A stretch of 64,000 nucleotides of DNA, from the NCBI GenBank assembly GCA_964363305.1, contig CAYIHX010000016.1:6824-70823 (forward strand), written 5' to 3'. The translations under genes were made by a program, and so were the position numbers. This document shows positions 1 through 13,762 of the stretch, one piece after another (the first letter of the stretch is position 1; each line of letters begins with the position of its first letter). The notes under the pieces are model-generated. The model saw only the letters and a list, made by a program, of their open reading frames with translations. It ran no database searches and had not been told where the DNA came from. The stretch comes from an uncultured Bacteriovoracaceae bacterium (lineage in GTDB: Bacteria > Bdellovibrionota > UBA1018).

Positions 1-822
1 ATTGAGTCTCTCAGTCAGGATATCTGTCACTTCTTTCTTCAAAAACAAGCGACTCTTCTCGATCCGCTTTCCTGAGTGCGTCAGATACTCCTGATGAGCC
101 AATAAACGATCCAGTAGATCTGAGGTCCCCACGTCTCGAAGAGCGTCCGTTTTAAGAACCGGAACCTCCCAACCCTGATTCGATCCGTCAGGCCCCATTC
201 CCAGCATGAGCGTGATCTCGCGGACAAGCTTGTCCGACTCGGGGCGATCACTCTTGTTCACCGCAAAAACATCTGCGATCTCCATCAGGCCGGCCTTCAT
301 GACCTGAATGGAGTCGCCACTCTCCGGCACCAAAACCACCAGCACCGTCTGAGCGAGCTTCAAAATATCGAGCTCAGTCTGACCCACGCCTGCCGTCTCT
401 ACCAAAATGACATCAAACCCAGCGGCATCCAGAACCAGCACGACCTCTTTCGTGGCAATCGAGAGACCGCCGTGCTGCCCGCGTGTTCCGAGCGAACGAA
501 TAAACACACCCTCATCCGAAACATGGTCCTGCATCCGAATGCGATCACCGAGAATGGCTCCACCCGTGAAAGGGCTCGACGGATCAACCGCTACCACTGC
601 CACGCGAAGTCCACGCTTGCGCAGATGGGCCGTCAGCCGATTGACCAGGGTCGACTTCCCGGCGCCCGGGGGGCCGGTTATCCCCATCACCTGCGCCGTC
701 CCCGTCAAGGGGTACAGAATCCTCATGACCTCCCCGACATCGCCGTCGCGGTTTTCAACTTTTGAAATCAAACGGGCAAGGGCCAGCCGGTTCCCGGCCC
801 TCATCTCTTCGACGAGCTTCAT
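1..822 (-). CDS. meaB: Methylmalonyl-CoA mutase-associated GTPase MeaB/ArgK. Partial: the C-terminus runs off the window start.
   Basis: Minus-strand translation from ATG at 822 gives MKLVEEMRAGNRLALARLIS...GITGPPGAGKSTL (P-loop) ...VDPSSPFTGGAILGDRIRM, the typical MeaB/ArgK pattern. Absent from the ORF track because it has no in-window stop. Confidence 0.8.
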   Translation of the reverse strand, partial: MKLVEEMRAGNRLALARLISKVENRDGDVGEVMRILYPLTGTAQVMGITGPPGAGKSTLVNRLTAHLRKRGLRVAVVAVDPSSPFTGGAILGDRIRMQDHVSDEGVFIRSLGTRGQHGGLSIATKEVVLVLDAAGFDVILVETAGVGQTELDILKLAQTVLVVLVPESGDSIQVMKAGLMEIADVFAVNKSDRPESDKLVREITLMLGMGPDGSNQGWEVPVLKTDALRDVGTSDLLDRLLAHQEYLTHSGKRIEKSRLFLKKEVTDILTERLN

Positions 823-865
823 GATTCCGGGTCTAGCACAACCGCCGACTGCCGATAAGAGATTG

Positions 866-2110: not shown

Positions 2111-2718
2111 TGTCCCACAAGTCGCGAAAAAGAAGCCTTCGACACGCGCTCTGGGTTAGTTTGGCTCTCCATGGCATATTCATTTTAACCATCGGAACTC
2201 TCGATTTCGGAAAGACACCACGAACATCATCCATAAGCATGCTCGTCGAAATCGCCAATCATCACCCAGACAAAGCGACGAACACTCGGCGGGTTCCCTC
2301 GCACCCTAAAAATGCGAAAAACCAAACTAAAACCATAGAAACCATAGAAAAAAGTGATTCTCAAAAATCCCCAGAGCTGCCTCAAGCGTCCGAGCCGGTG
2401 ATCGATTCCTCGCCAGGAAATCCTCAGAGCGCCCTACAAGCCTACATCGCCGATTTTTCCCAGATGCTCGATCGAAAAAAATTCTACCCGAGAAATGCTC
2501 TCTTACGCGAGGAAGAGGGGAAGGTCATCGTCGCGCTCTCCATTCTGACAGATGGAACCATCGTTGAGTTGACTGTCGAAGAGCCCAGCCCCTATGACTC
2601 CTTGAATCGAGCGGCCCTCCAGGCCGTCCGGGACCTCCCTCCCCTCGAACCACTTCCTTTCGGGGCCCCAAGTAGGGTCCACGTCCACATACCACTGGAA
2701 TACAAACTCAGCAGATAG
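2107..2718 (+). CDS. tonB: TonB-family energy transducer (N-terminal TM, Pro/Lys-rich linker, TonB C-terminal domain)
   Basis: N-terminal TM (LWVSLALHGIFILTIG), low-complexity linker, C-terminal ...KFYPRNALLREEEGKVIVALSILTDGTIVELTVEEPSPYDSLNRAALQAV... typical of the TonB C-domain. ATGA start/stop overlap with the upstream peptidase gene. Confidence 0.65.
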   Translation: MMSHKSRKRSLRHALWVSLALHGIFILTIGTLDFGKTPRTSSISMLVEIANHHPDKATNTRRVPSHPKNAKNQTKTIETIEKSDSQKSPELPQASEPVIDSSPGNPQSALQAYIADFSQMLDRKKFYPRNALLREEEGKVIVALSILTDGTIVELTVEEPSPYDSLNRAALQAVRDLPPLEPLPFGAPSRVHVHIPLEYKLSR

Positions 2719-2726
2719 CTGCTTTT

Positions 2727-2763
2727 CATTTGCAAATAAATTGCAACAACTCATTTGCATGGA
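2727..2763. promoter_or_regulatory. Candidate Fur/iron box: perfect 10-bp palindrome ATTTGCAAAT plus two further (A)TTTGCA / ATTGCAA half-sites just upstream of the TonB-dependent receptor start
   Basis: Sequence cATTTGCAAATaaATTGCAAcaactcATTTGCAtgg, AT-rich, placed in the 57-nt tonB-receptor gap, with a Fur gene nearby. Motif assignment is inferential. Confidence 0.3.
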
Positions 2764-2775
2764 TATGCCTTCAAT

Positions 2776-4791
2776 ATGAAGATCCGGCTTATTCTTCTTT
2801 ACCTCTCCATGATGCCCCTTCTGGCTCTGGCGGAAGAAATGGATGAGTTCGTTACGCCTGCGATCTCCGTGCTCGGGCGCACAGGAGAAGAAAAATCAGG
2901 GACCGGCGCACACACCCCGACCGTGAGCGAAATCTCTGGACTGAGACTCGAAAGAAAAAGAGCCGCTACACTGGGCGAAACCATCTCACGCGAGGCTGGC
3001 GTTACCTCCTCTTTTTTTGGCCCAAACGCGAGCCGCCCCGTGATCCGCGGGATGGATGGCGAGAGGCTGAAAATTCTCCAGGACGGCCTGGGAACACAGG
3101 ATGCATCGGGAACAAGTCCGGACCATTCGGTCTCACTCGATCCATTGCTCATTGAGCGCATAGAAATAGTTCGTGGGTCTGGCTCATTGCTCTATGGAAA
3201 CAGCGCAATCGGCGGCGCGGTAAACACGGTGAGCAGCCGGATCCCCGAGAAGCTTGAATTCGGAACCTTGCTCAAGGAGAATTCTCGCCTCTCCTCGAAC
3301 GATCTAGGGAGATCGATGGGTCTCGTATTCGGAAAAAGCTTTGGGAGGGTGGCTCTCCATCTCGACGGGATGACTCGGGCCTCGAATGACTACGAGGTTC
3401 CAGGGTTCCTTCGCTCACTTCGCCTCCGAGAAGCCGCGCCACTCGCCGCGGGAACGGAGGAAGCGCATGGGCGCGTCCCCAACAGTGGCGCCCAGGCTTT
3501 AGAGGCAGGAATCGGAACGAGCTATGTCTTGGACAATGGATACATGGGCGCGTCTTTTTCAGCCTTTGGAACCCAGTATGGAACAGTTGCTGAACCGGAC
3601 ATAACCATTCATATGAACCGCCAGCGTCTGGAATCCTCGTCTGAACTCCGCCAACTCGGAGAGCTTGAGTCGGTCCGCATCAAAAGTGTGGTTTCCCGAT
3701 ACCAGCATCAAGAAATCGAAGGAGGCGATCAAATTGCCACCACCTTTATGAATATCGCCACGGAAAATCGGGTTGAATTCAAGCATCGCCCCATGGCTGC
3801 GTTCAGCGGAATCCTGGGTATTCATCAAAAATACTTCAACCTCAGTGTCGCGGGCGAAGAGGCATTCATTCCGACCACACAGAATTCCTCATTGGCCGCC
3901 TTTCTCCATGAGGAAGGCGCCTTGGGTGATTTCACGCCTTCTTTTGGTCTGAGATTCGACCCGTCCTGGATCTATGCACAGACAGATAGCCGATTCGGAT
4001 CATCCGTAAAATGGTACGCTCCAGGCAGCATGGCCATCGGCGCCCTCTATCGGGTGGGAGCGGGATTTTCTCTCGGATTGAACAGTTCCCTTACCTCTCG
4101 CGCTCCCAACTACCAGGAGCTCTTTGCAAACGGCCCCCATTTAGCCACCGGTATCTTCGAAGTAGGGCGCTCCGAATTTGCTCTCGAGGTGGGGCGCTCC
4201 CTCGAGCTTTCCGTTCTGCACGAGTCCCAATCCGGACAGGGACGGATCAATTTATTCGCTCAAAGTTTCGCCAACTACATAGCTCTTAACCCCACGGGCA
4301 CAACGGACGCGTCTTGGTTACTACCGATATACGAATATCAAGCCGTCAACGCATTCTTTGCCGGGGCAGAGACTGAATATCACCAACGACTTCCCTGGAA
4401 AGTCGGCCCAGGCTTCTTTGAAGTTGACGGAAAAATTGATTTTGTACGAGGGCTGATTTTTACCGACACCACCACATCCCTACCCAGAATTACACCGATC
4501 CGCGAAACCCTCGGAATCACCTACAGGGTCCCGTGGGCCTTGGCCGAAGCTGAACTTCAACGTTCAGAAAAACAGCTCATGACTGCTCCGGGCGAACTGC
4601 CAACGGACGCCTATACGCTACTCAACGTCGGGATAGAAGTCCCTCTGGAAATATCAGTCGTCAACCTGCGATTGCTCGCCCGCCTGAATAACGTCTTTGA
4701 TGCCGAGGCCAGGAACCACGTCTCCGTCCTCAAGGATCGAGCACCCCTTCCGGGAAGGAACTTTATCGTGGGCCTGCAGGGCCAACTCTAG
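2776..4791 (+). CDS. TonB-dependent outer-membrane receptor
   Basis: Signal peptide MKIRLILLYLSMMPLLALA and a TonB-box-like DEFVTPAISVLG. Plug-domain motifs (RPVIRGMDGERLKILQDGLG, IEIVRGSGSLLYGNSAIGGAVN) and a long beta-barrel region. A 2755 start is also possible. Confidence 0.85.
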   Translation: MKIRLILLYLSMMPLLALAEEMDEFVTPAISVLGRTGEEKSGTGAHTPTVSEISGLRLERKRAATLGETISREAGVTSSFFGPNASRPVIRGMDGERLKILQDGLGTQDASGTSPDHSVSLDPLLIERIEIVRGSGSLLYGNSAIGGAVNTVSSRIPEKLEFGTLLKENSRLSSNDLGRSMGLVFGKSFGRVALHLDGMTRASNDYEVPGFLRSLRLREAAPLAAGTEEAHGRVPNSGAQALEAGIGTSYVLDNGYMGASFSAFGTQYGTVAEPDITIHMNRQRLESSSELRQLGELESVRIKSVVSRYQHQEIEGGDQIATTFMNIATENRVEFKHRPMAAFSGILGIHQKYFNLSVAGEEAFIPTTQNSSLAAFLHEEGALGDFTPSFGLRFDPSWIYAQTDSRFGSSVKWYAPGSMAIGALYRVGAGFSLGLNSSLTSRAPNYQELFANGPHLATGIFEVGRSEFALEVGRSLELSVLHESQSGQGRINLFAQSFANYIALNPTGTTDASWLLPIYEYQAVNAFFAGAETEYHQRLPWKVGPGFFEVDGKIDFVRGLIFTDTTTSLPRITPIRETLGITYRVPWALAEAELQRSEKQLMTAPGELPTDAYTLLNVGIEVPLEISVVNLRLLARLNNVFDAEARNHVSVLKDRAPLPGRNFIVGLQGQL

Positions 4792-5227
4792 GGCCCTTGC
4801 CTCCCAAGGCTGACTTTTTATGACAAGAGTCACAAATAGCAAAAAATTCCAACGAATGACGAACATCGCGAAAACCTAAACGCACGACTTCCTCAAGCAG
4901 GGACTGGGGAATGCAAAGATCCACGGGTTTCGTCGACCGACATCTTCGACAAACGATATGGTGATGGTGATGCGATTCGGCAAATTCATAACGAGCAACC
5001 CTATCACCTAGGTCGCAGCGACGAACCAAGCCCTTCTCATCCATATCTTGAAGGACACGATACATCGTAACTACATCAAAACGAGAGCCTCCCTTTCGTC
5101 GATACAATTCCTCCGCGGAAAAAGGACCATGCTCCCGTCTCAACTCACCAAGAACCCATAGACGTGCGTCTGTCACTCGAAGGCCAACGCCTCGAATCAG
5201 ACTCGTCAATACTGCATGCTGCTCCAT
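4763..5227 (-). CDS. fur: Fur-family metalloregulator (ferric uptake regulator)
   Basis: DNA-binding N-domain (GLRVTDARLWVLGEL...VTMYRVLQDMDEKGLV), an HHHHH run, and CRRC...CDSC metal-site cysteines. Start chosen at MEQH; an alternative ATG at 5248 (MIRSPFS) sits inside the palindrome. Confidence 0.8.
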   Translation of the reverse strand: MEQHAVLTSLIRGVGLRVTDARLWVLGELRREHGPFSAEELYRRKGGSRFDVVTMYRVLQDMDEKGLVRRCDLGDRVARYEFAESHHHHHIVCRRCRSTKPVDLCIPQSLLEEVVRLGFRDVRHSLEFFAICDSCHKKSALGGKGPRVGPAGPR

Positions 5228-5240
5228 AGAAAATGGGGAA

Positions 5241-5254
5241 CGAATCATGATTCG
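5241..5254. promoter_or_regulatory. Perfect 14-bp palindrome CGAATCATGATTCG, a candidate auto-operator upstream of or overlapping the fur start
   Basis: Exact inverted repeat seen in the sequence. It resembles the AATCATT core of classical Fur boxes. Function is inferred. Confidence 0.3.
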
Positions 5255-5308
5255 ACTGTCTATCGAGATTACATCATTATGCAACCCACTTGCGATCAAG
5301 GAATAGGG

Positions 5309-6289
5309 CTACTCCGGCTGAACGACCTGATCGCCATTCAAGACCGCGGAGGTCGCGGATTCAACCTCTGCCGGCGCTCCAGCAGAAATTTTTGCGGCCG
5401 ACGCCTCATGCAAATCTGCGCTCACAGGGGGCGGAATCGCCGCCGGCTCGCGAGAGAGCGGATCCGGAGTCGCCTCCTCCGTCGGCACACCCTGCGTGAC
5501 GAGGGTCTCGCTCGGCGGGGAACCCTCACCCTCAGGTCTCACCGATGGTGCCGCGGGGTCGAGAGGATCTGGAATGTCGGCCCGGGCGGCGGCGGGCTCG
5601 CCAGTCGGCCCTTCCGCCCCATCCACCGGCGCCGTGACCGCATCGTCCGGCCGAATAATTCCATACTTGGTCAGCACGCTCGTCGCGCTCTCGTTATTCG
5701 GGCGAACAGCGCCAAAGGGACTCGACGCTGAAGCTAATTCCTCCGTCGAGCGTGGCGTCATCTCCAAGCGTCGATAAAACACATATTCACTGAGACGCTT
5801 GTATCGATTCACGGCCCACCGCATGTACCGGGTATCCGCGAACTCCTGCATGAACGCCCGGGCGATGGGCGTCAAAAAAACGTAGGTAGTCAGAACGTCC
5901 TTCTGCTTCTCATCGAGATAGACGTCATTTTTCAACTTGTCGTCGAGCGCCAAAAGTTTACCGTAGAAACACCAGTGATACTTGAGCGGGTCCCGCTTCA
6001 CGAGCTCCCGCGCACCGGTCTGCTGCTCTTCCTTACTATTGGTGCGTTTGCGCAAAAGTATGAAATCCGCATCACAGTTCATGACCTGCTCGGGCGAGGG
6101 CGCCTTTAAATCAGTGAAGATCGCGATCAGATCGGCCCGATCCAGTCCATCCGGATGGGGCACCTGAACATACTCGGGCGGCAGCTGAGGCAGGGGCCCG
6201 ATGGGGTCGGTCTGAATACTCGAGCAGCCAACCCCAACAAGCAGCGCCACACCGACAAATTTCAGACGCTGAACACTCTTAGAACGCAT
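5309..6289 (-). CDS. Hypothetical lipoprotein with Pro/Glu/Ala-rich C-terminal tail
   Basis: Start at MRSKSVQRLKFVGVALLVGVGCSS (lipobox-like VGC). The C-terminal 100 aa are low-complexity P/E/A/S-rich. Confidence 0.5.
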   Translation of the reverse strand: MRSKSVQRLKFVGVALLVGVGCSSIQTDPIGPLPQLPPEYVQVPHPDGLDRADLIAIFTDLKAPSPEQVMNCDADFILLRKRTNSKEEQQTGARELVKRDPLKYHWCFYGKLLALDDKLKNDVYLDEKQKDVLTTYVFLTPIARAFMQEFADTRYMRWAVNRYKRLSEYVFYRRLEMTPRSTEELASASSPFGAVRPNNESATSVLTKYGIIRPDDAVTAPVDGAEGPTGEPAAARADIPDPLDPAAPSVRPEGEGSPPSETLVTQGVPTEEATPDPLSREPAAIPPPVSADLHEASAAKISAGAPAEVESATSAVLNGDQVVQPE

Positions 6290-6369
6290 CAGACCCCTCT
6301 CCTCACAATACGTCTCGGCAAAAAACGCCCACTCCCTAAGTTCCCTCAAGACGAATTTCCATATGACCG

Positions 6370-7554
6370 ATGATGCCAGTGAGGAGAAACCTCAGGGCCC
6401 TTATGCGTAATGTCGGAAGTAGAAAACTACACGTCAATCTCTCGGCACTCTTGGCGTCGATTTTCGTCCTCTGCACCGCGAGCTGGGGAGCGGACGCCCC
6501 TCCACCTCCCGAGGCAGAGGCACCAAAGAAATCCGCATCTACTGACGGCAAAGGGGTACGAAACTTCTACGAAGTCCTTCAAGACCTGGTCTCCGATTTC
6601 GAGTACGACCTGAAGAACGGCGAAGTCGAAGGACTCAAAAATCTGGCGATCCGCAACCTTGCGACCAGCGAGAACATTCCGCCTTCTTTCAAAAACCATC
6701 TCGAACTCGTCATCACCGAAAAGATCCTCAAGACAACCAAGAGTCGGATTCTCCAATGTTTGCCCTGCCGATCCAAACGCACGACGCTGGACGGCGAGCA
6801 GGTCACGATTAGCTCGGCTGAAACGAATCCAGTTGAGTTAGCCCGCATCGCAAAAATGGCAGGCATCGAACACTTCATGGATCTCGCTTTCTCCTATCAA
6901 CCCAGCGGCATGGTCCTCTCCATGTACATTACTGAACCAGAAGGGGGCTCCATCGTCTGGTCGAGGAGCTATAACTCCGAGACCTCGAGGGCCTCTGCGT
7001 TCCGACGCGGGGTCGACTACAGTCAGATCGATGACGCGCGCAAGCAGATGGAATACACTCCTATGCTTCAGTTCAGAACCACGATCTATTACATGTTCCA
7101 GCCGGACATCGGAGGCCTCTATACAGGCTGCCTCGGCGCCGGCCTTCGTTTGATGGAACGGTATAACAATCGCAGAAGCGAGGTAGGCTTCGAGCTCGAC
7201 TACTTCCTCGATACTTCGATTATCGCAGGCTCCGCAGCATCTGCAGCGACCGAGACCCGACTCTACCGCAGCGTCAATCTGACCATGCTCTTCATGCATG
7301 CCTGGAACCTGATTGGCGAAGAGGAGAACTTCAATAAAGCGCGAGGCAGCATCTTCGCCGGAGTGGGTGGAACCTATGCCTCAGGATTCCTCGGTGGGCT
7401 CATTCGGGCCGGCTATGAATGGCGCCTGGCAAAACATTGGGCGGTCAGCGGAAACCTCGGTTACCGCCCCCCCAGCACAGCTTTCTTAAACAGTACGGCC
7501 GTCGGGGCCGTCCACGGAGTTGAATTCGGACTAGGGATCAGCGGACTTTTCTAG
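6370..7554 (+). CDS. Secreted hypothetical protein, possibly an outer-membrane beta-barrel (C-terminal aromatic), first gene of the motor-like operon
   Basis: N-terminal signal peptide (LLASIFVLCTASWGADA), alternating hydrophobic pattern, C-terminus ...GLGISGLF. A 12-nt gap to the next gene. Confidence 0.5.
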   Translation: MMPVRRNLRALMRNVGSRKLHVNLSALLASIFVLCTASWGADAPPPPEAEAPKKSASTDGKGVRNFYEVLQDLVSDFEYDLKNGEVEGLKNLAIRNLATSENIPPSFKNHLELVITEKILKTTKSRILQCLPCRSKRTTLDGEQVTISSAETNPVELARIAKMAGIEHFMDLAFSYQPSGMVLSMYITEPEGGSIVWSRSYNSETSRASAFRRGVDYSQIDDARKQMEYTPMLQFRTTIYYMFQPDIGGLYTGCLGAGLRLMERYNNRRSEVGFELDYFLDTSIIAGSAASAATETRLYRSVNLTMLFMHAWNLIGEEENFNKARGSIFAGVGGTYASGFLGGLIRAGYEWRLAKHWAVSGNLGYRPPSTAFLNSTAVGAVHGVEFGLGISGLF

Positions 7555-7566: not shown

Positions 7567-8364
7567 TTGAAAGAACGAAAGAACACTCAGCACAACAGGA
7601 AACGAAACGGCACTGAGCGGGCGTGGATCGCTTTCACCGCGCTGTCTTCGCTCGCGCTGACTTCTCCTGGATGCTCCACCTTCCGAAGCATCTTCGCTGC
7701 GGATGCCGCAAAGAGCCGCCAGACCCCCATTGGCAACCCGTTTGTCGACTACGTTCAAAATTCAGACAACAAGGAAAACATCATCCTTAGGACTAAAAAA
7801 GGCGATCGCTCGTTGGAAATCGAGCTTCCGGGATCGAACGCCGCCATGACTGACTTCGTGATTCCGATGTCCCCCTCGTTCGGCGATTCAAGCGGTCGCG
7901 GACTCGCTTCCTCATCCTCCGCCCATTCGGATCCTGAAAATGATCAATCCTTCAGGGAGAGCAAACCCAGTCTCACTGATCGCGAGATCACGTCCCAATT
8001 TCCAACGATCACTCCGGGCCAAGAGGGCGACCAACGCGAGGTCGAAGTGGGCCTCGGACTCAACGTAACTGATGACGAGACCCCAGCCGCTGACCGCAGC
8101 TACCTCGCCTCAATGGACCACATCAAGCAGCTCTTCAAGTTCGGGCGAAATGAAGCGGGACTGCTCGAGATCGACGAGATGCTGCATGCATATCCTACCG
8201 ATCCAAAACTTTATCAGATGCGTGGAACGCTTCTTGACCGAGTCGGCCGTTCCGACATGGCACTGAAATCGTGGAATCAAGCATTGAGGCTCGAGCCAGG
8301 CAATCAAGCCCTGCGACGCTTCATCGAACGAAAACAAAAAGCCAGGGACTTGGCTTCGCACTAG
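7567..8364 (+). CDS. Lipoprotein with C-terminal TPR-like repeats
   Basis: Lipobox LTSPGCS and a Ser/Asp-rich linker. The C-terminus (AGLLEIDEMLHAYPTDPKLYQMRGTLLDRVGRSDMALKSWNQALRLEPGN) looks like TPR. Confidence 0.55.
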   Translation: MKERKNTQHNRKRNGTERAWIAFTALSSLALTSPGCSTFRSIFAADAAKSRQTPIGNPFVDYVQNSDNKENIILRTKKGDRSLEIELPGSNAAMTDFVIPMSPSFGDSSGRGLASSSSAHSDPENDQSFRESKPSLTDREITSQFPTITPGQEGDQREVEVGLGLNVTDDETPAADRSYLASMDHIKQLFKFGRNEAGLLEIDEMLHAYPTDPKLYQMRGTLLDRVGRSDMALKSWNQALRLEPGNQALRRFIERKQKARDLASH

Positions 8365-8375: not shown

Positions 8376-10763
8376 ATGATGAAATCACTGAAATGGATGT
8401 CAGTTCTTCTCAGCCTCCTGCTGGTAGGAGTTGCTCACGCCGCAAACTCCGCCAAGGAAATGGAGGGCGTACAACGAGCCGCCGAACTCCACGTTAGAAA
8501 TCTACTCGAACCCCTACTCGACAAATATTGCCGCGATCAATGCAAATTGATGTCGGTCACGGCGCAGGTCGACCTCGAGAGCCCTGATCAACTCGCGCCT
8601 GGTTTCGACGATATTGATCCAAGAAGTCAAGTAAGGCTCATGGCCTCGTCGGCGCGCGCTAAAATTTTGATGGATGAAAAGGTAGGGCCCATCTCGCGCG
8701 GGAAGCTCATGGACCTGGTACAGCAGTACCTCGATACCTTAGATTTCCCGGTTCGGGTAGAAACCCAAATTGCTCACTTTCCGCAGCCAATCGGTTCGGC
8801 GAGCAAAGTGGCCGAGCTACGAGATCGCGTCAGCAAACAATTCAAAAACACCCTCGAAGATCTTTTTCGTCAGTTTTGCCCAGAGCAATGCATGCTTGCC
8901 GATTACGAGCTTCAAACGGAGGTCGTGAATAGCGAAGAGGCGAGCTATGGCGGAAGCCGTGAATTTGTCGAGGACGGCGGTATCGCCATTCGGGTCAAAA
9001 ACATCACCGGCACCCTCCTCGTCGACGACGACCTGCTACCAGAGGAGCGCAACAACGTCCTCGAGATGGCCAAACTGAAAACAAACTATCTCAAAAATGT
9101 CACAATGAATCTGCGTTCCCTCAAATTTCCGAAACCGGTCGGACTGATGGGATCCAACGGCCTCGCCGGGAATGGTCGTGCCGGTCGAAGTCTTGCTTCA
9201 AATAATTCCTCAAACGACACTCGTGACTCAAAATCATTGCTAAACGCGACGGAAACTCGAACTAACTCCCTGGAGGAAAAAAATTCCTCCTCCCAAACCA
9301 ACACTAACCAGAACAGTTCGAACGTCAACACGGAGAACAAGAGCTCCTCCAACGAAACCAATGCCCGCCAGGAACGCTACGAGCGGTTCGAGAAAATTGA
9401 ACGTGTTGAAAGCGGAGACGCGGTTCAGAAGGAACTTCAAAAATTCAAGGTCTTCGGCCTCATCTTCGCATGCTCCGTAATTTCCCTGTTGATCTTTCTC
9501 GCGATGGCCAGTTATCGCCCCCGGGCGTCGGCCGGCGGCTCAGGCGTGACCCGTATCATTCAACAGCTCGCGTCGGACCCCATCACGGCAAGCTCAGGCC
9601 CCACGGTAGGCTCTTCGAGTAGCGCAGGAGACGACCGAACAGGTCTGGTCGTCAAGCGTTACGAAATCGAACGACTAAAAGACGAACTCATGGGAGTATT
9701 CGCGCAGCAACCTCGTGTCGCGAAACAGGTTTTTTCGAGAATCCTCACAGAAGAGGGCGTCGAAGTTACCGCCCAGTACGTGAATATTTTCGGAGAAAGC
9801 GTGGTCTTGGATATGCTTCGCGATCCGAGCCTACAGAACGACATGAATGAGCTGATGGAGTACTACGCAAAAAATCCCATCTCCCTCACGGACGACGAAC
9901 GCCTGGAACTGCTCCAAGTGCTCCATAACCGGACTATCGCCGGAAAACTCGTGGTCATGGGCTCCCGCTCCTCTCAGCTCTTTGACTTCTTGGCCGACAT
10001 GGACGGCCTGCAGATCATGGAACTCGTACGAAACGAGTCACTGACTGTGAAGTCGATTGTCATGACCCAGTGTGATCATCAAAAACGCCAACAGATCTTT
10101 ACCCAGATGGACGAACGCCATCGCATGCAGCTCATGACGGAGCTTTCGAGGATCGACTATCTGCCACGTGACTACATCACGAATGTCGCCAACGCGCTGA
10201 AGCGGAAGCGCCGGGAGAATCCGAAACTCAACACCGAGGCGTTGCCCGGTTCCGAGGTACTCCTTACCCTCCTGGAACGCACCGGACCCGACGTGCAAAG
10301 AACCGTGGTCAAGAGCCTCGAAGCTTCAAATCCGGAAAGCGCGAGAAACCTCAAAGCGAAGCTCGTCAGCACCGACACCCTTCGCCATCTGCGGGACGGC
10401 CAGCTACTCGAGGTGGTTCTCAGCCTGAAACACGACGAGTTACTGCAGTTCTTAAAAGGCGCCGCCAACGAACTACGGGCATCCATCTTTTCGAAGTGTC
10501 CAAAAGACCTGGTTGCGGAGCTTGAGGAGGAGCTGGGTACCGTCCAGCTGCTCAGCAGGGAGACCTATATGGCCGTTGAGCGCAAGATCCTCAATCGGCT
10601 GAAAATCATGGCCAACGAAGGCCTGGTCAATCTCGTCGAAACGAATGAGCGCATGTTTGCCACAGCCGGGGGCGGGGTAACCGGTTTCGTCGAAGCCGGT
10701 CCGGCGGATGCCACCCAAGCCACAACCTCCGGAATTACACCAGGAAAGGCGTCTGGATGGTAG
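8376..10763 (+). CDS. Bitopic membrane protein: signal/TM, ~335-aa periplasmic domain with an Asn/Ser/Thr-rich linker, one TM, and a ~415-aa cytoplasmic region with a FliG-like C-terminal (torque-helix) domain
   Basis: The C-terminal LKGAANELRASIFSKCPKDLVAELEEELGTVQLLSRETYMAVERKILNRLKIMANEGLV aligns nearly position-for-position with FliG-C LKGASDELREKIFKNMSKRAAEMLREDLEAMGPVRLSDVEAAQKEIVNIVRRLEDAGEI. TM at aa 358-379 (nt 9447-9512). N-terminal signal MMKSLKWMSVLLSLLLVGVAHA. Confidence 0.7.
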   Translation: MMKSLKWMSVLLSLLLVGVAHAANSAKEMEGVQRAAELHVRNLLEPLLDKYCRDQCKLMSVTAQVDLESPDQLAPGFDDIDPRSQVRLMASSARAKILMDEKVGPISRGKLMDLVQQYLDTLDFPVRVETQIAHFPQPIGSASKVAELRDRVSKQFKNTLEDLFRQFCPEQCMLADYELQTEVVNSEEASYGGSREFVEDGGIAIRVKNITGTLLVDDDLLPEERNNVLEMAKLKTNYLKNVTMNLRSLKFPKPVGLMGSNGLAGNGRAGRSLASNNSSNDTRDSKSLLNATETRTNSLEEKNSSSQTNTNQNSSNVNTENKSSSNETNARQERYERFEKIERVESGDAVQKELQKFKVFGLIFACSVISLLIFLAMASYRPRASAGGSGVTRIIQQLASDPITASSGPTVGSSSSAGDDRTGLVVKRYEIERLKDELMGVFAQQPRVAKQVFSRILTEEGVEVTAQYVNIFGESVVLDMLRDPSLQNDMNELMEYYAKNPISLTDDERLELLQVLHNRTIAGKLVVMGSRSSQLFDFLADMDGLQIMELVRNESLTVKSIVMTQCDHQKRQQIFTQMDERHRMQLMTELSRIDYLPRDYITNVANALKRKRRENPKLNTEALPGSEVLLTLLERTGPDVQRTVVKSLEASNPESARNLKAKLVSTDTLRHLRDGQLLEVVLSLKHDELLQFLKGAANELRASIFSKCPKDLVAELEEELGTVQLLSRETYMAVERKILNRLKIMANEGLVNLVETNERMFATAGGGVTGFVEAGPADATQATTSGITPGKASGW

Positions 10764-11269
10764 ATTTCAACGGAAGACCTGATGTCCCGATGCTGAAGGA
10801 GGTCAAACTTCTGCAAGTCTTTGACGATGCGGAACTCGCCGAACTCCTCACTCTGGGCACGCTCGGACAGTTCGAGGCGCATGGCAACATCGTCATCGAG
10901 GGCGAAATGACCTGGGGCCTCTACGTCATCCTCGATGGCCTGGTCGGCATCTTCAAAACCAACAAGCTGAGCGGTGACACCTTTGACATCGGCCAGATGC
11001 GTACCGGTCAATATTTCGGAGAAATGTCCCTGATCGACGAAAACCCGAGATCGGCGACCGTTCGTGCCCTCACTGAGACCTATCTCTTCAACATTCCCAA
11101 ACAGAGCTTCATGGAGTTCCTGAGTCGCTCGCCTGACCGACGGCAGCGTTTTTACGAAACCTGCATTCGTGATCTGGCGCACCGACTCAAGGAACTCAGC
11201 GACAATTTCATCGAAACCCAATACCAACTTTGGAAAACCGCGATGCAAAAGCGGTCGGAGGCGGCATAA
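10757..11269 (+). CDS. Stand-alone cyclic-nucleotide-binding (cNMP/CAP-family) domain protein
   Basis: FGEMSLIDENPRSATVRAL and the upstream glycine-rich beta-roll motifs of the CAP/cNMP-binding domain. 7-nt overlap (ATGGTAG) with the preceding gene. Confidence 0.75.
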   Translation: MVDFNGRPDVPMLKEVKLLQVFDDAELAELLTLGTLGQFEAHGNIVIEGEMTWGLYVILDGLVGIFKTNKLSGDTFDIGQMRTGQYFGEMSLIDENPRSATVRALTETYLFNIPKQSFMEFLSRSPDRRQRFYETCIRDLAHRLKELSDNFIETQYQLWKTAMQKRSEAA

Positions 11270-11271
11270 AA

Positions 11272-12053
11272 TGAATTTCTCTTCAATTATCGGAATTTCT
11301 ATCGGAATCGCGGTCATGTACTTTGCCCTGACCAGTACGACGGACAACTTGAAATTCTTCCTGGACGTCCACGGAATTTCAATCGTGCTCGGAGGCACCT
11401 TGGCCGCGGCGAGCATCAGTTTTCCGATCCTCAAAGTCCTTTCACTACTCAAAGTCTTCTTCCTACGCGTCCTCGGGGCGAACAAGGTCGATTATTTCGG
11501 TGTAATCAGCCAACTCATGGAGCTTAACAAGAAAGCAGCCAACGGACTAACGGGCATCAATGATTCCATCAGCACGATCAGGCATCCCTTCCTCAAGGAA
11601 GCCGTGACCCTCGTCGCATCAGGCGTTCTCACTGAAAAGGAAATCCGGCATGCTCTTGATCTCCGAATTCGAACGACCGAAGCCCGGTTTATGCACGAAG
11701 CCAACATGTTCCGCACCATAGGAAAGTTCCCCCCCGCGTTCGGACTTCTGGCGACAACGCTCGGAATGATCGCGGTTTTGCAGAAACTCGGCCAACCAGA
11801 CAGCCAGAAGCTCATCGGCCCAGCCATGTCGATTGGATTGATCGGAACCCTGTACGGGATCGGCACCGCCAATTTAATATTTCTTCCCATCGCAGAAAAT
11901 CTCACGGAAAGAACACAGGAAGAAATCAACCTGCGCAAACTGATCCTCGAAGGGGCCGTGATGCTCAAGCAGCAGGTCAATCCGATCGCGATGCGGGAGT
12001 CGCTCAACTCCTTCCTCCTACCTAAAGATCGAGTGATGCGAAAGGCCGCATAA
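11272..12053 (+). CDS. motA: MotA/TolQ/ExbB-family proton-channel stator protein (MotA-like)
   Basis: Four TM segments with the conserved C-terminal TM3/TM4 block (GPAMSIGLIGTLYGIGTANLIFLPIAENL), ~260 aa. Paired with an OmpA-domain MotB, which argues for MotA rather than ExbB/TolQ. Confidence 0.8.
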
Positions 12054-12838
12054 TGTCGATTTTTAAGAAGAAGAAACCACTTGAAGACCAAGACAGCGGG
12101 CCGCCGCCTGAGCATGCCAAACACGCGGCCGGGCACGACGACGAGTCGAACTGGCTCGTCTCCTACGCCGATATGATGACGCTCCTTTGCGGTTTTTTCA
12201 TCATGCTCTTCTCGATGGCGAAGCTCGACGAGCCCAAGTACGAAAAGGTAAAAGAGTCGATCGCGAAAGAATTTGGGGGCGAATATAAATCGCCGACGGC
12301 TGATCTCGCGCGCTTCGTAACAGAGATTCTCCAAGAGGCCGGCGTGGAAAAAGAGATCTCCATCAAATCTGACCCCGGAGGGGTATCGATTACCTTCCAG
12401 TCGACGATCTTTTTCGACACTCTCAGCTCCGACATCCTCGTGGAGGGACAGCGTGTAATCGAAAAAGTGATCACAGCACTTTCCGAGCGGGAGCGGCTCA
12501 ATCACGTCACCTACAAGGTTGTCATCGAAGGCCACACCGACTCACGCCCCGTGGTCTCAGGTGCCTACCCCACCAACTGGGAGCTCTCCGCCGCCCGGGC
12601 TTCACGGGTCGTGCGGCTCTTTCTCGAGCGGGGATTCTCGCCCAAGCAGATGGCCGCCATCGGTTACGCAGACACGTATCCCGAAAATGTTGAACGTTCC
12701 CCGGCGGGTGAATTTCAAGAAGCCGCAATGGCAAAAAATCGACGTGTGGTCGTGCGCATCCTCCAGCCGAAGACCGACTACATCCCCCTTCCTGACGTCA
12801 CCACGGAAGAAATCCCCCCGGCACCTTCTGCCCATTGA
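12053..12838 (+). CDS. motB: MotB-like stator protein (N-terminal TM/plug, C-terminal OmpA-like peptidoglycan-binding domain)
   Basis: WLVSYADMMTLLCGFFIMLF TM, then ...VVIEGHTDSRPVVSGAYPTNWELSAARASRVVRLF... typical of the OmpA/MotB C-domain. The TAATG motif overlaps stop and start with motA. Confidence 0.8.
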   Translation: MSIFKKKKPLEDQDSGPPPEHAKHAAGHDDESNWLVSYADMMTLLCGFFIMLFSMAKLDEPKYEKVKESIAKEFGGEYKSPTADLARFVTEILQEAGVEKEISIKSDPGGVSITFQSTIFFDTLSSDILVEGQRVIEKVITALSERERLNHVTYKVVIEGHTDSRPVVSGAYPTNWELSAARASRVVRLFLERGFSPKQMAAIGYADTYPENVERSPAGEFQEAAMAKNRRVVVRILQPKTDYIPLPDVTTEEIPPAPSAH

Positions 12839-12889: not shown

Positions 12890-13762
12890 ATGCGTTGGAA
12901 CTGTCCTCATTGCGGTATCGCACTCGCGGTCACAGACGAGAAGCTGAGTTCGAGTTGGACCTTCTCGCGCTGCTATAAATGCGGCGGCTTCGCGCTCGTT
13001 CGAAAAACCGACGTCAACCTCGTAAAAGTCGACCACGCTCCGATCGGAGAAAAGGTGATCCTTCCCGAGGGCAGCGAGACCCCGACCCTCAGTAGTACCG
13101 CGATGAAGAATCTCGCGGGTTTTGTCTCTAACGGAGGACAACCAAAGCCCACGATTCTGCCTGCTCGGCGGCGACCCATTACCCCTAATAAGGCGACCAC
13201 GCCGCCCCCTTTCCAAGGAAGAGCGATTCCGATGCTGCCTCCCCCGCTGCCCCGCGTGGATGACGAAAAAGGCATCGCTCAGAAAATTCTGCCACTCGCG
13301 ATGGCGCTAATGAGCGTGGTAGCCATGAGTTCTGGCTTCTACCTATTCAAGCAGGGACAAAATCTTTACCGCCGAAGCGTCGAACCCCCTACGACCGCTA
13401 AGGTCGCGCAGGCGATCAAGCCAGTCGTCTCCGGTGAGCGACTGATCGAGATCGACCAAGTCCGAGCGTCGGCGCAAGCCGCGCCAACTCGAAGCGCGAC
13501 TCCGGCCACCACTGCTACCCCAGAACAAGATCCGGCCCCCCTTCCTGGACTCGTCATCCGGCCGAGAAGCGCGATGGTCATGCTACGGAGCGGCCCTGGA
13601 ACCAGCTATAAGGAGCTGGGCTATGCCAATCCCTCCTTGCAATACGTAGTCATGGAATGGAAGGAGCGCTGGTTCAAAGTACTGATTCAAGACTCTCGGC
13701 AAACAGCCTGGGTGAGAAATGACCTAGTCACCCTCACTCCCATCACCGCAGCGAATGACTAA
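12890..13762 (+). CDS. Membrane protein with N-terminal Cys4 zinc-ribbon, a central TM and a C-terminal SH3b-like domain
   Basis: CPHCG...CYKCG zinc ribbon, Pro-rich linker, TM (ILPLAMALMSVVAMSSGFYLF), and a C-terminal region (VMLRSGPGTSYKELGYANPSLQYVVMEWKERWFKVLIQDSRQTAWVRNDLV) that looks like bacterial SH3. Confidence 0.55.
   Translation: MRWNCPHCGIALAVTDEKLSSSWTFSRCYKCGGFALVRKTDVNLVKVDHAPIGEKVILPEGSETPTLSSTAMKNLAGFVSNGGQPKPTILPARRRPITPNKATTPPPFQGRAIPMLPPPLPRVDDEKGIAQKILPLAMALMSVVAMSSGFYLFKQGQNLYRRSVEPPTTAKVAQAIKPVVSGERLIEIDQVRASAQAAPTRSATPATTATPEQDPAPLPGLVIRPRSAMVMLRSGPGTSYKELGYANPSLQYVVMEWKERWFKVLIQDSRQTAWVRNDLVTLTPITAAND

What the first reader, a model, noticed from the sequence alone, without database searches (positions are those of the whole stretch)
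8376..10763. Membrane-anchored protein with a FliG-like torque domain (FliF-like topology fused to a FliG-like C-terminus) outside any flagellar cluster
This 795-aa product runs: signal/TM1, a ~335-aa periplasmic domain, an Asn/Ser/Thr-rich low-complexity linker, a single TM (aa 358-379), then a ~415-aa cytoplasmic domain. The last ~130 aa align almost residue-for-residue with the FliG C-terminal torque-helix domain (LKGAANELRASIF...LVAELEEELGTVQLLSRETYMAVERKILNRLKIMANEGLV vs FliG LKGASDELREKIF...AAEMLREDLEAMGPVRLSDVEAAQKEIVNIVRRLEDAGEI). FliG is normally a soluble rotor protein. FliF, the MS ring, is a bitopic protein with a large periplasmic ring-building region and a Q/N/S/T-rich linker before TM2. 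This gene therefore looks like a compact FliF/FliG-type fusion. The periplasmic part contains paired-Cys motifs (CRDQC, CPEQC) and beta-strand stretches (LMSVTAQVDLESP; FPVRVETQIAHFP) that resemble ring-building motifs. It is immediately followed by MotA and MotB, and no fliE/H/I/M/N/flh genes are present in the surrounding ~20 kb.
Basis: partly seen in the sequence, partly recalled or inferred. Interest (0 to 1): 0.9.

Follow-up and report, generated by a model that had tools for sequence, protein, structure and literature searches.

The report
Membrane-anchored FliF/FliG-like rotor with own stator
One protein joins periplasmic domains predicted to fold like the flagellar MS ring, a membrane helix and a complete FliG-like torque domain; it sits in a conserved operon with its own MotA/MotB ion motor and two outer-envelope partners, an apparently undescribed machine separate from the ordinary flagellar basal body.

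Summary

Corrections:
- A cNMP-binding gene lies between this gene and motA.
- FliF likeness is at fold level only.
- The FliM-binding EHPQ motif is lost.

The gene belongs to a conserved five-gene core: an OMP-like protein, a TPR lipoprotein, this protein, MotA and MotB. That core occurs in about 80 Bdellovibrionota genomes and, rearranged, in distant 66-70% GC lineages, where the OMP-like and TPR genes can be fused.

A genome carrying the family (FG-1) also has a complete canonical fliF-fliG flagellar operon and at least 5 MotA paralogues. A conserved sigma-28-like promoter precedes the operon.

Best reading: a dedicated MotAB-driven rotor or force transducer spanning the envelope, co-expressed with the motile phase. 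A role as a flagellar-motor accessory is not excluded. I found no description of it in the searchable literature.

The parts
5309..6289 (-). Divergently transcribed lipoprotein (326 aa from Met21; lipobox LLVGVGC). Found next to the operon in most orthologous loci.
   Evidence: Sequence. The exact 326-aa product is on record. Synteny table.
6346..6373 (+). Sigma-28 (FliA)-like promoter TCAAG-N16-CCGATGA, in the 114-nt divergent intergenic region.
   Evidence: It is the only match in 64 kb (expected 0.37). The same motif sits at the same place in 41 of 70 orthologous loci, and 12 more copies lie upstream of flagellin genes. It matches the B. bacteriovorus attack-phase consensus TTAAG-N16-CCGATA (PMC3627812).
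6403..7554 (+). OMP-like protein (383 aa): signal sequence, conserved CxxC, and a C-terminal beta-rich part ending in an aromatic residue (…GISGLF). Probable outer-membrane beta-barrel.
   Evidence: Weak DUF3575 / OMP_b-brl hits in 11 of 29 orthologues. No PDB sequence match. Homologues sit in the distant short-type operons (hhalign probability 98.7-99%).
7567..8364 (+). Lipoprotein (invariant Cys36 in a G-C lipobox) with about two C-terminal TPR repeats.
   Evidence: Homologues in distant operons at hhalign probability 99.4%. Fused to the OMP-like protein in L088.
8376..10763 (+). The finding: a 795-aa protein made of two RBM-like repeats, a linker, a TM helix and a FliG(N-M-C)-like cytoplasmic part.
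8376..8441 (+). Signal-peptide-like N-terminus (aa 1-22, …VAHA|AN).
   Evidence: Hydrophobicity scan. AxA-type sites in orthologues.
8457..8786 (+). RBM-like repeat 1 (aa 28-137): a long helix, CxxxC, a beta-hairpin with an invariant G76-F77 tip, a helix and a strand.
   Evidence: AlphaFold secondary structure. Invariant residues. FliF as top hit.
8787..9143 (+). RBM-like repeat 2 (aa 138-256), a tandem duplicate of repeat 1.
   Evidence: hhalign repeat 1 against repeat 2: probability 93%, E 2.6e-7. Structure.
9153..9371 (+). Asn/Ser/Thr-rich low-complexity periplasmic linker (aa 260-332). Its length varies between orthologues.
9372..9446 (+). Conserved periplasmic juxtamembrane segment (E-R-x-E-K-I-E-R-V-E-x-G-D-A…), invariant in the close clade only.
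9447..9515 (+). Single transmembrane helix (aa 358-380).
9651..10631 (+). FliG-like N, M and C domains (aa 426-752).
   Evidence: Pfam. PDB profile search. Foldseek against full-length FliG. hhalign against FG-1 FliG.
10500..10535 (+). Torque-helix equivalent P-K-D-L-V-A-E-L-E-E-E-L (aa 709-720). P709 is invariant and the acidic pair 718/719 is conserved across the whole superfamily.
10757..11269 (+). Stand-alone cyclic-nucleotide-binding protein (170 aa; FGE…RSA phosphate-binding cassette). Present in most but not all lineages.
   Evidence: Pfam cNMP_binding E 1e-17. Absent in the 42-47%-identity clade. Also near a distant member.
11271..12053 (+). MotA-type stator A subunit (260 aa).
   Evidence: Pfam and NCBIfam. 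Closest solved structures are C. sporogenes MotA (E 1.5e-34) and PomA. Interface residues.
12053..12838 (+). MotB-type stator B subunit (261 aa): plug, invariant Asp40 and an OmpA-like peptidoglycan-binding domain.
   Evidence: Pfam MotB_plug and OmpA. Asp40 present in 67 of 67 orthologues.
12890..13762 (+). Zn-ribbon, TM helix and SH3-like protein (290 aa). An accessory member found in many loci of the close clade.

Best explanation
[quoted passage not shown] Proposed mechanism:
1. The MotA/MotB unit is anchored to peptidoglycan by MotB. It carries the invariant channel Asp and turns ion flow into movement of the MotA cytoplasmic domain.
2. MotA pushes on the conserved acidic torque helix of the FliG-like C-domain.
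3. That domain is covalently tied, through one TM helix, to two FliF-like ring-building-type domains in the periplasm. Force or torque therefore reaches a periplasmic assembly, most likely a ring.
4. That assembly contacts the OMP-like/TPR pair at the outer membrane.

The system is distinct from the flagellar basal body. Canonical fliF and fliG exist elsewhere, the FliM-binding motif is lost, and no export gate or rod genes are attached. It is still switched on with the motile or attack-phase programme through a sigma-28-type promoter. In this lineage a cyclic-nucleotide-binding protein, translationally coupled to the rotor gene, probably modulates it.

What is shown: the domain identities, the operon, the conservation, the separate canonical flagellar genes and the promoter motif. 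What is inferred: ring formation, the MotA-FliG contact, rotation versus pulling, and the physiological output.
For: Domains.

Tight operon: overlapping stop and start codons and no + strand terminator between 5200 and 14500.

Conserved synteny: about 70-80 Bdellovibrionota loci at 37-80% identity.

MotA-MotB stay directly adjacent to the protein in rearranged form in two distant groups:
- a Silvanigrellales-type 969-aa member;
- the short one-repeat subfamily of 66-70% GC genomes, with no flagellar genes within 10 kb where that much flank is held (L085, L087, L088; L086 is a 3.7-kb contig).

Envelope partners: the OMP-like and TPR genes are homologous across these distant operons (hhalign probabilities 98.7-99.4%) and are fused into one 689-aa protein in L088. 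This argues for one physical complex.

Stator competence: MotB Asp40 is invariant.

Matched changes at the interface:
- MotA lacks the canonical R90 and E98 equivalents. It conserves a shifted K87-K88 pair and E/D98.
- The rotor helix reads E-E-E where canonical FliG of the same lineage reads R-E-D.

Separate flagellar genes: FG-1 has a full canonical flagellar operon and at least 5 MotA paralogues.

FliM-binding motif: EHPQ is replaced by E-S-L-T.
Against: - The organisms known to carry the gene are flagellated (FG-1/FG-2). The Silvanigrellaceae isolates, relatives of the Silvanigrellales MAG that carries a member, are motile and have flagellar genes.
- Flagellin genes lie 3-9 kb upstream in at least 30 loci.
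- The promoter is of the FliA type.

A role at the flagellar motor is therefore equally compatible with the regulation.

- The 70-100-aa disordered periplasmic linker and the roughly 45-aa cytoplasmic tether are poor shafts for rigid torque transmission.
- The basic torque-helix residues (K694, K710, R728) are conserved only in the close clade.
- Ring formation, MotA contact and outer-membrane localisation of the partners are untested.
- The taxonomy and flagellation status of the high-GC lineages could not be established.
Confidence: 0.5

Rival explanations
1. Accessory of the flagellar motor. The protein forms a ring or dock at the flagellated pole. It recruits, parks, brakes or otherwise regulates this MotAB stator pair by FliG mimicry, under cNMP control. 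The TPR and OMP partners would act as a periplasmic scaffold, analogous to PflA/PflB/FlgP or MotX/MotY/FlgT in high-torque motors.
For: - Sigma-28-like promoter shared with flagellin genes.
- Flagellin genes close by in at least 30 loci, including a 37%-identity member.
- The hosts have a thick polar flagellum.
- The stator is of the flagellar MotA/PomA/MotP type, with plug and peptidoglycan-binding domain.
- TPR scaffolds are known in other high-torque motors (own knowledge).
Against: - In B. bacteriovorus, FliA drives about two-thirds of attack-phase promoters, including many non-flagellar genes, so the promoter is not specific to flagella.
- Downstream housekeeping genes (VTT/DedA, XerC, TrmFO) are equally syntenic, so flagellin proximity may be inherited gene order.
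- The distant short-type operons have no flagellar genes within 10 kb.
- MotA has lost the R90/E98 equivalents that contact canonical FliG.
- A static dock would not need full FliG N-M-C plus two RBM repeats.
Confidence: 0.3
2. Non-motor scaffold or signalling protein. The FliG-like and RBM-like folds are reused as interaction modules, for example a polar landmark or an envelope-stress or cNMP signalling hub. The adjacent MotAB works elsewhere.
For: - FliG/MgtE_N-type helical repeats and alpha-beta-beta-alpha-beta domains are widespread generic folds.
- A cNMP-binding protein is translationally coupled to the gene.
- One Oligoflexaceae member has no adjacent MotAB.
Against: - MotA-MotB adjacency is kept in three different gene orders over very large evolutionary distance.
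- The residues conserved across the whole superfamily in the cytoplasmic part include the torque-helix Pro and the acidic pair.
Confidence: 0.1
3. It is the organism's real flagellar MS-ring and FliG, made as one polypeptide.
For: Engineered FliF-FliG fusions assemble rings (8z4d; papers listed). JGI annotates family members as 'flagellar motor switch protein FliG'.
Against: - It scores 47.7 bits against TIGR00207 fliG, whose cutoff is 226.7.
- There is no FliF Pfam hit.
- It has only two RBM-like repeats and the EHPQ motif is lost.
- FG-1 has a separate, normal fliF and fliG in a complete flagellar operon.
Confidence: 0.03
4. A Zorya-like anti-phage system built on a MotAB-type motor.
For: MotB gives generic hits to ZorB models, and the cNMP-binding domain hits Pycsar effector models.
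Against: - No ZorA hit for MotA and no ZorC/ZorD-like genes.
- MotA is closest to flagellar stators.
- Gene order is stable and chromosomal across the clades sampled, rather than patchy like a defence island.
Confidence: 0.02

Closest known systems
Flagellar FliF (MS ring) plus FliG (rotor, top of the C ring) driven by MotA5B2 stators, including engineered FliF-FliG fusions (Salmonella, Vibrio; PDB 8z4d)
   Same: - Periplasmic alpha-beta-beta-alpha-beta ring-building-type domains, with FliF as the best structural match.
- A TM helix followed by a cytoplasmic tether.
- A complete FliG N-M-C architecture.
- A torque helix with a conserved acidic pair.
- A flagellar-type MotA/MotB with plug, channel Asp and peptidoglycan-binding domain.
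- A sigma-28-type promoter, as for late flagellar genes.
   Different: - It is one natural polypeptide.
- It has no sequence similarity to FliF, and only two duplicated repeats, each with an invariant CxxxC.
- It has a signal peptide instead of TM1.
- A 70-100-aa low-complexity linker precedes the TM helix.
- EHPQ (FliM binding) is lost.
- The MotA R90/E98 equivalents are replaced by a shifted charge pattern.
- It is partnered with an OMP-like protein and a TPR lipoprotein instead of export gate, rod, and FliM/FliN.
- It coexists with a canonical fliF/fliG.
Natural FliF-FliG fusion of Chlamydiaceae (Bergeron 2015/2016; 10.1101/023564, PMC4768692)
   Same: A natural single protein with about two RBM-type periplasmic domains, TM helices and a cytoplasmic FliG-derived domain, in an organism where it is not part of a working flagellum.
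   Different: - The chlamydial protein carries only a FliG middle-domain homologue, with no torque domain.
- It keeps two TM helices.
- The paper proposes that it works with the T3SS.
- Here the full FliG N-M-C with torque helix is present, together with dedicated MotAB, OMP-like and TPR partners.
- The two were not compared directly here.
Non-flagellar 5:2 ion-driven motors with a periplasm-spanning effector (ExbBD-TonB, TolQR-TolA, AglRQS-Glt, GldLM, ZorAB)
   Same: An inner-membrane ion motor is coupled to a protein that reaches across the periplasm to outer-membrane partners. The short subfamily even has a TonB-like proline-rich linker.
   Different: In those systems the effector engages the motor through TM or periplasmic contacts, and none uses a FliG torque domain. 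Here the motor is a flagellar-type MotAB (TolQ model 17.9 bits, no ZorA hit), and coupling would occur at the cytoplasmic FliG-like domain.
Periplasmic stator scaffolds of high-torque flagellar motors (PflA/PflB/FlgP in Campylobacter, MotX/MotY/FlgT in Vibrio)
   Same: TPR-containing and outer-membrane-linked proteins encoded with, or acting on, stator units in polar, fast-swimming bacteria.
   Different: As far as I know, no FliG-like or RBM-TM fusion component is known in those scaffolds. No homology to them was detected or tested here.

Membership tests
FliG (flagellar rotor/switch protein) | Three helical ARM-like domains, N, M and C | tested here: met
   Pfam FliG_M and FliG_C are above cutoff. 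Foldseek aligns 313-320 columns to full-length FliG. hhalign covers FG-1 FliG residues 34-325.
FliG (flagellar rotor/switch protein) | Passes the orthologue-level model (TIGR00207 fliG equivalog) | tested here: not met
   47.7 bits against a cutoff of 226.7.
FliG (flagellar rotor/switch protein) | EHPQR motif of the M domain (FliM binding) | tested here: not met
   The aligned segment is N-E-S-L-T. E554 is invariant and R592 is invariant in the close clade (mostly R/K in distant members), but HPQ is replaced. Canonical FG-1 FliG has NEHPQT.
FliG (flagellar rotor/switch protein) | Charged torque-helix residues (E. coli K264, R281, D288, D289, R297) | tested here: inconclusive
   The acidic pair (E718/E719) is conserved superfamily-wide and P709 is invariant. 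K694, K/R710 and R728 are conserved only in the close clade. The residue before the acidic pair is Glu in the close clade, where canonical FliG has Arg/Lys, and is hydrophobic in distant members.
FliG (flagellar rotor/switch protein) | Soluble protein that docks on the FliF C-terminus and is encoded in the fliE-fliF-fliG-fliH operon | tested here: not met
   It has a signal peptide and a TM helix. There are no flagellar genes in the window. The canonical operon lies elsewhere in FG-1.
FliF / SctJ (MS-ring, ring-building-motif proteins) | Sequence match to YscJ_FliF / FliF C-terminal Pfam models, or to FliF itself | tested here: not met
   No Pfam hit. The profile search against PDB finds only the FliG part of the 8z4d fusion. 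hhalign against FG-1 FliF gives E 0.09.
FliF / SctJ (MS-ring, ring-building-motif proteins) | alpha-beta-beta-alpha-beta ring-building-motif fold | tested here: met
FliF / SctJ (MS-ring, ring-building-motif proteins) | Assembles a homo-oligomeric ring | not testable with these tools
   No multimer prediction or experiment is available.
FliF / SctJ (MS-ring, ring-building-motif proteins) | Three RBMs with a beta-collar, flanked by two TM helices | tested here: not met
   There are two duplicated repeats. The N-terminal segment looks like a cleavable signal peptide and there is one TM helix.
MotA/MotB flagellar-type stator | MotA_ExbB channel subunit closest to flagellar MotA/PomA; MotB with plug, TM Asp and OmpA-like peptidoglycan-binding domain | tested here: met
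   Pfam. PDB MotA 8ucs/6ysf at E 1.5e-34 and PomA at E 4e-25. Asp40 is present in 67 of 67 orthologues.
MotA/MotB flagellar-type stator | Conserved rotor-facing charges at the E. coli R90 / E98 (PomA R88 / E96) positions, and equivalog-level scores | tested here: not met
   The aligned positions are S/A and N/S/Q. The conserved charges are shifted to K87-K88 and E/D98. The best NCBIfam score is 142.6 against a cutoff of 394.
Sigma-28 (FliA) regulon | -35 TAAAG/TCAAG, 15-16 nt spacer, -10 (G)CCGATAA upstream of the operon | tested here: met
   Window 6346-6373. The motif is present in 41 of 70 orthologous loci and upstream of flagellin genes. It matches the B. bacteriovorus consensus. Transcription was not measured.
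Zorya / other MotAB-like defence or Tol/Exb systems | ZorA with a long tail plus ZorC/D, or TolQ/ExbB-type A subunit | tested here: not met
   No ZorA hit in PADLOC and no ZorC/ZorD-like gene in the operon. The TolQ model scores 17.9 bits against a cutoff of 221.

The most novel reading that the evidence does not exclude
This would be a second ion-driven rotary motor, independent of the flagellum. It would be a minimal 'MS-ring plus FliG ring plus MotAB' rotor-stator machine with no type III export gate, rod, hook or FliM/FliN. It would spin or pull an outer-membrane complex (the OMP-like/TPR pair). Under this reading it is an ancient sister, or a stripped-down relative, of the flagellar motor core, present in Bdellovibrionota and in unrelated high-GC lineages.
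Probability: 0.35. Interest if true: 0.95.

Novelty: new variant of a known kind. Interest (0 to 1): 0.8.

Why it matters
- It would show that the torque-generating pair of the flagellum (MotAB acting on FliG) has been reused, or retained, outside the flagellar basal body. That bears on how the flagellar motor evolved and on how widely 5:2 ion motors are used.
- It offers a naturally simplified rotor: one polypeptide instead of FliF, FliG, FliM and FliN. This could make rotor-stator coupling and rotor assembly easier to study.
- It points to an uncharacterised envelope machine, apparently expressed with the motile or attack-phase programme, in predatory and non-predatory Bdellovibrionota.
- Public annotation calls these proteins 'flagellar motor switch protein FliG' or 'hypothetical'. 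That hides them and can distort flagellar gene counts.

Tried and rejected
- Sequence-level FliF homology: none in Pfam, in the PDB profile search or by hhalign against a same-phylum FliF. FliF likeness rests on predicted fold only.
- OMP-like protein: no PDB sequence match, only sub-threshold DUF3575/OMP_b-brl hits, and no relation to the DUF4421 gene next to an Oligoflexaceae member.
- AlphaFold-database fold search: the library was not available, so PDB Foldseek was used instead.
- Defence-system reading: rejected by PADLOC.
- Finding the window's own contig and organism: the 100% identical MotA (P0264, 72.6-kb NCBI contig) is not in the gene index, and the M48 gene is not on record. Only short Hainich groundwater contigs with identical genes were retrieved. 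So I could not see what lies upstream of the window, and flagellin genes there are possible.
- Taxonomy of the 66-70% GC short subfamily: no source names, so their flagellation status is unknown.
- B. bacteriovorus HD100 orthologue: none was among the 80 of 90 genome loci listed or the named hits. Its presence there is unresolved, so the three-motAB literature could not be linked.
- Paralogous MotA sequences from FG-1, wanted for a same-genome comparison of interface residues: not retrievable because the supplement was cut when stored.
- Literature: eight full-text searches, of which those aimed at this protein family found no description of it.


Full report
OBSERVATION.

The ORF at 8376-10763 (+) is real and encodes 795 aa. 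A hydrophobicity scan finds two hydrophobic segments only: aa 5-26, a signal-peptide-like stretch ending AHA|AN, and aa 354-381, a single TM helix. The segment aa 260-332 is 55% Asn/Ser/Thr.

Pfam places FliG_C at aa 647-752 (E 2.2e-13, 50.9 bits, cutoff 23.3; model positions 2-107 of 108). It places FliG_M at aa 546-615 (E 3.3e-7). The orthologue-level model TIGR00207 scores only 47.7 bits against a cutoff of 226.7.

One detail of the finding is wrong. MotA does not follow directly. A 170-aa cyclic-nucleotide-binding gene (10757-11269) lies between, and its start overlaps the stop codon of the FliG-like gene. motA (11271-12053) and motB (12053-12838) follow with 1-2-nt junctions. Pfam scans of the other ORFs of 129 aa or more in the 64-kb window (plus three further ORFs of 90-125 aa left unscanned) found housekeeping genes and a Zn-uptake cluster. 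They found no fli, flg, flh or che genes.

THE CYTOPLASMIC HALF IS A WHOLE FliG.

- A profile of 34 family members hits FliG crystal structures (3ajc, 3hjl, 1lkv, 4fhr) at E about 1e-10 over the M and C domains.
- An AlphaFold model of aa 425-765 (120-sequence alignment, pLDDT 87.9) is all-helical.
- Foldseek aligns it over 313-320 columns with full-length FliG from Aquifex (3hjl) and with FliG in Salmonella C-ring structures (8umx_B, 8vib_G, 8wiw_3), at probability 1.00. TM-scores are low because the domain orientations differ.
- Against the canonical FliG of the related organism FG-1, BLASTP gives 21% identity over 235 aa (E 1e-10). hhalign gives probability 97.4% and E 9e-12 over FliG residues 34-325, so a FliG_N-like domain is present too.

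Torque helix. Its equivalent is P709-K-D-L-V-A-E-L-E-E-E-L. P709 is invariant, and the acidic pair at 718/719 (E. coli D288/D289) is kept in 28 and 24 of 29 members, down to 24% identity. K694, K/R710 and R728 (the equivalents of K264, R281 and R297) are conserved only in the close clade. The residue before the acidic pair is Glu in the close clade, whereas canonical FliG of the same lineage reads L-L-R-E-D-L.

FliM-binding motif. EHPQ reads E-S-L-T here, and only the Glu (with R592 in the close clade) survives.

THE PERIPLASMIC HALF IS FliF-LIKE IN FOLD, NOT IN SEQUENCE.

There is no FliF or YscJ hit in Pfam, none in the PDB profile search and none by hhalign against FG-1 FliF (E 0.09).

An AlphaFold model of aa 23-262 (pLDDT 90.7) shows two tandem units. 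Each is a long helix, a beta-hairpin, a helix and a strand. hhalign of repeat 1 against repeat 2 gives probability 93% and E 2.6e-7, so they are a duplication.

Against one PDB chain per 40%-identity family:
- Other ring-building proteins are further down: PrgK 7.1, EscJ 6.9, SpoIIIAH 6.6, SpoIIIAF 6.5, MxiJ 6.4, SpoIIIAG 6.3.

Foldseek independently ranks Salmonella FliF chains first: 7bk0_B (E 1e-7), 6scn_A (6e-6) and 8t8p_AA (2e-5). These alignments span 269-289 columns, so both repeats align onto FliF chains that carry more than one ring-building domain.

Family hallmarks are four invariant Cys (two CxxxC at the helix-to-strand junction of each repeat), G76-F77 at the first hairpin tip, and P136. 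In the close clade there is also an invariant juxtamembrane segment, EKIERVExGDA, just outside the membrane.

Differences from FliF: two repeats instead of three, a probable cleavable signal peptide instead of TM1, and a 70-100-aa low-complexity linker before the TM helix.

THE FAMILY AND ITS OPERON.

Word-indexed and exhaustive searches find several hundred full-length relatives. They run from 53-80% identity down to 22-30% identity. Wherever a taxon name was available they come from Bdellovibrionota: Bacteriovoracaceae, Bdellovibrionia, Oligoflexia, Oligoflexaceae and Silvanigrellales.

In about 70-80 genome loci the order is fixed:
- lipoprotein (-)
- OMP-like protein
- TPR lipoprotein
- RBM-TM-FliG protein
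- [cNMP-binding protein]
- MotA
- MotB
- [Zn-ribbon-TM-SH3 protein]

The cNMP gene is missing in the 42-47%-identity clade.

A Silvanigrellales-type 969-aa member has the order unk403, unk208, MotA, MotB, X.

A short subfamily (541-611 aa) has one repeat with CxxxC and PGF, a proline-rich linker, a TM helix and a FliG-like domain with an acidic torque helix. It occurs in 66-70% GC genomes. It is always directly preceded by overlapping motA-motB, inside an 11-gene operon. There are no flagellar genes within 10 kb where that much flank is held (L085, L087, L088; L086 is only 3.7 kb).

In those distant operons the ~372-407-aa gene is a homologue of the OMP-like protein (hhalign probability 98.7-99%, E 3e-16 to 3e-18). 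The ~211-242-aa gene is a homologue of the TPR lipoprotein (probability 99.4%, E 2e-21). In L088 both are fused into one 689-aa protein.

So five genes form an old, coherent core: the OMP-like protein, the TPR lipoprotein, MotA, MotB and the RBM-TM-FliG protein.

The evidence that the OMP-like protein is an outer-membrane beta-barrel is modest. It has a signal sequence, a C-terminal aromatic residue, and weak DUF3575/OMP_b-brl hits in 11 of 29 orthologues. It has no PDB match.

THE STATOR.

MotA is closest to the solved Clostridium sporogenes MotA (E 1.5e-34) and to PomA. It scores far below every NCBIfam equivalog cutoff (best 142.6 against 394). MotB has the plug, an OmpA-like peptidoglycan-binding domain and the channel Asp, invariant in 67 of 67 orthologues.

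At the positions aligned with E. coli R90 / PomA R88 and with E98 / E96, the family has S/A and N/S/Q. What it conserves is a basic pair three to four residues earlier, K87-K88, which is basic at both positions in at least 69 of 70 sequences and aligns with C. sporogenes R89-K90. It also conserves an acidic residue one position later, E/D98, in 68 of 70 sequences.

A stator surface that has lost one acidic and one basic canonical charge faces a rotor helix that has gained an acidic residue (E-E-E against R-E-D). This fits a co-adapted, dedicated pair. It is an inference, not a test.

RELATION TO THE FLAGELLUM.

FG-1 and FG-2 are magnetotactic Bdellovibrionota with a single thick polar flagellum, and they carry the family (loci L024, L053, L054).

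The FG-1 annotation contains a complete canonical operon: flgB-flgC-fliE-fliF-fliG-fliH-fliI-fliJ…fliM-fliN-fliOPQR-flhB-flhA-flhF-fliA. It has a normal 558-aa FliF and a 337-aa FliG with NEHPQT. It also has a second weak FliG KO hit and at least five MotA KO hits. This rules out the reading that the finding is simply a fliF-fliG region. It also shows that stator paralogues are plentiful in this phylum.

The link to motility is nevertheless real:
- Flagellin genes lie 3-9 kb upstream of the operon in at least 30 loci.
- A motif T(C/T)AAG-N15/16-CCGA(A/T)(A/G)A sits in the short divergent intergenic region. In the window it is at 6346-6373, the only match in 64 kb (expected 0.37).
- The motif is at the same place in 41 of 70 loci. 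Twelve further copies precede flagellin genes, and only 40 lie elsewhere in 1.37 Mb on both strands.
- It matches the FliA/sigma-28 consensus TTAAG-N16-CCGATA found at 66% of B. bacteriovorus attack-phase promoters. There FliA controls many non-flagellar genes as well (PMC3627812).

The promoter overlaps the first ATGs of the ORF. The OMP-like gene therefore starts at 6403 (383 aa), as in independent gene calls. No + strand terminator is predicted between 5200 and 14500.

The operon is thus very probably expressed with the motile or attack-phase programme. That fits both a flagellar accessory and an independent machine.

MECHANISM (inference).

I favour, at about 50%, a self-contained MotAB-driven rotor or force transducer. 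Peptidoglycan-anchored stators push on the FliG-like torque helix. The force passes through the TM helix to a periplasmic assembly of FliF-like domains that contacts the OMP-like/TPR pair. The cNMP-binding protein modulates it in this lineage.

Arguments for this reading:
- The five-gene core persists through three gene orders and a gene fusion.
- FliG_N and FliG_M are retained, and those domains matter for ring architecture rather than for stator contact.
- The FliM-binding motif is lost.
- The stator surface is altered.
- Canonical flagellar genes are separate.

Arguments against:
- The hosts of known identity (FG-1/FG-2) are flagellated, as are isolates of the Silvanigrellaceae, relatives of another carrier.
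- The regulatory and positional links to flagellin are real.
- The long disordered linkers are poor torque shafts. They would suit a TonB-like pulling action, or a free-running ring, better than a rigid axle.

The main rival, at about 30%, is an accessory of the polar flagellar motor: a stator dock, brake or outer ring. A passive scaffold (about 10%), the true flagellar rotor (about 3%) and a Zorya-like defence system (about 2%) are unlikely.

WHAT IS KNOWN.

I found no description of this family in eight full-text searches. The closest precedents are:
- engineered FliF-FliG fusions (for example 8z4d);
- the natural Chlamydiaceae FliF-FliG fusion, which has about two RBMs but only a FliG middle domain;
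- the general class of 5:2 ion motors with periplasm-spanning partners.

Databases label these proteins 'flagellar motor switch protein FliG', 'FliG C-terminal domain-containing protein' or 'hypothetical'.

VERDICT.

Novelty: a new variant of a known kind. It uses flagellar rotor and stator parts in a new single-polypeptide architecture, within a new conserved operon. There is a substantial chance (about 0.35) that it is a distinct, flagellum-independent rotary machine. Interest: 0.8.

Noticed in passing
It is translationally coupled to the FliG-like gene and lies directly before motA. It is absent from one subclade, yet a similar gene sits near a distant Oligoflexaceae member. It may be a cAMP/cGMP counterpart of c-di-GMP brakes such as YcgR.
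   Followed up: partly
window 10740-10760 (aa 790-795) and orthologues: Many family members end in a conserved C-terminal tail, (I/L)-K-K-V-A-G-W, after a variable linker. Canonical FliG has nothing like it. It may be a docking peptide.
   Followed up: no
L085, L086, L087, L088 (66-70% GC contigs; L088 on a 7.5-Mb contig): The short subfamily (541-611 aa) has one RBM-like repeat, a proline-rich TonB-like linker, a TM helix and a FliG-like domain. It sits in an 11-gene operon with MotAB, homologues of the OMP-like and TPR proteins (fused in L088), two weak OMP_b-brl proteins and several unknown proteins of about 520-600 aa. The host phylum is unknown.
   Followed up: partly
L082 (Oligoflexaceae MAG): A distant member has no adjacent MotAB. 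It is flanked by a DsbA-like gene, which fits the four invariant periplasmic Cys forming disulfides, and by a DUF4421 gene and a cNMP-binding gene. pilM-N-O-P-Q lies 3.6 kb downstream. A prepilin peptidase gene also follows the Silvanigrellales-type locus.
   Followed up: no
window 407-5299: A metal-uptake cluster lies upstream of the operon: an M48 peptidase, a TonB C-terminal-domain protein, a TonB-dependent receptor closest to the zinc-piracy receptor ZnuD (267 bits, below cutoff), and a Fur-family regulator. In relatives this position holds flagellin genes plus the M48 gene, so the cluster looks like an insertion or rearrangement.
   Followed up: partly
window 36577-42304: A 1001-aa DnaE-type polymerase (PHP, pol III alpha and OB domains) overlaps the end of a 493-aa ORF with no Pfam hit. 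Another unknown ORF precedes that one. The layout resembles an imuA-imuB-dnaE2 mutagenesis cassette.
   Followed up: no
window 30000-36500: A stretch of lower G+C (0.51-0.52 against about 0.55-0.58) holds several ORFs with no family hit, an HTH_3 protein, an AAA_14 ATPase just upstream and a LysR regulator. It may be a horizontally acquired island.
   Followed up: no
window 48001-50000: AT skew is unusually high (0.32) over the minus-strand NrfD-like and Na+/H+ exchanger membrane-protein genes. This is probably a codon-composition effect of hydrophobic proteins on the opposite strand.
   Followed up: no
FG-1 annotation (PMC13200544, supplementary file 10): FG-1 has three MotA KO hits and one MotB KO hit within about ten genes (OOOAGBFP_02687-02696), next to an RsbU-type phosphatase. 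That makes at least five MotA paralogues in all, an unusually rich stator repertoire for a bacterium with a single flagellum.
   Followed up: no
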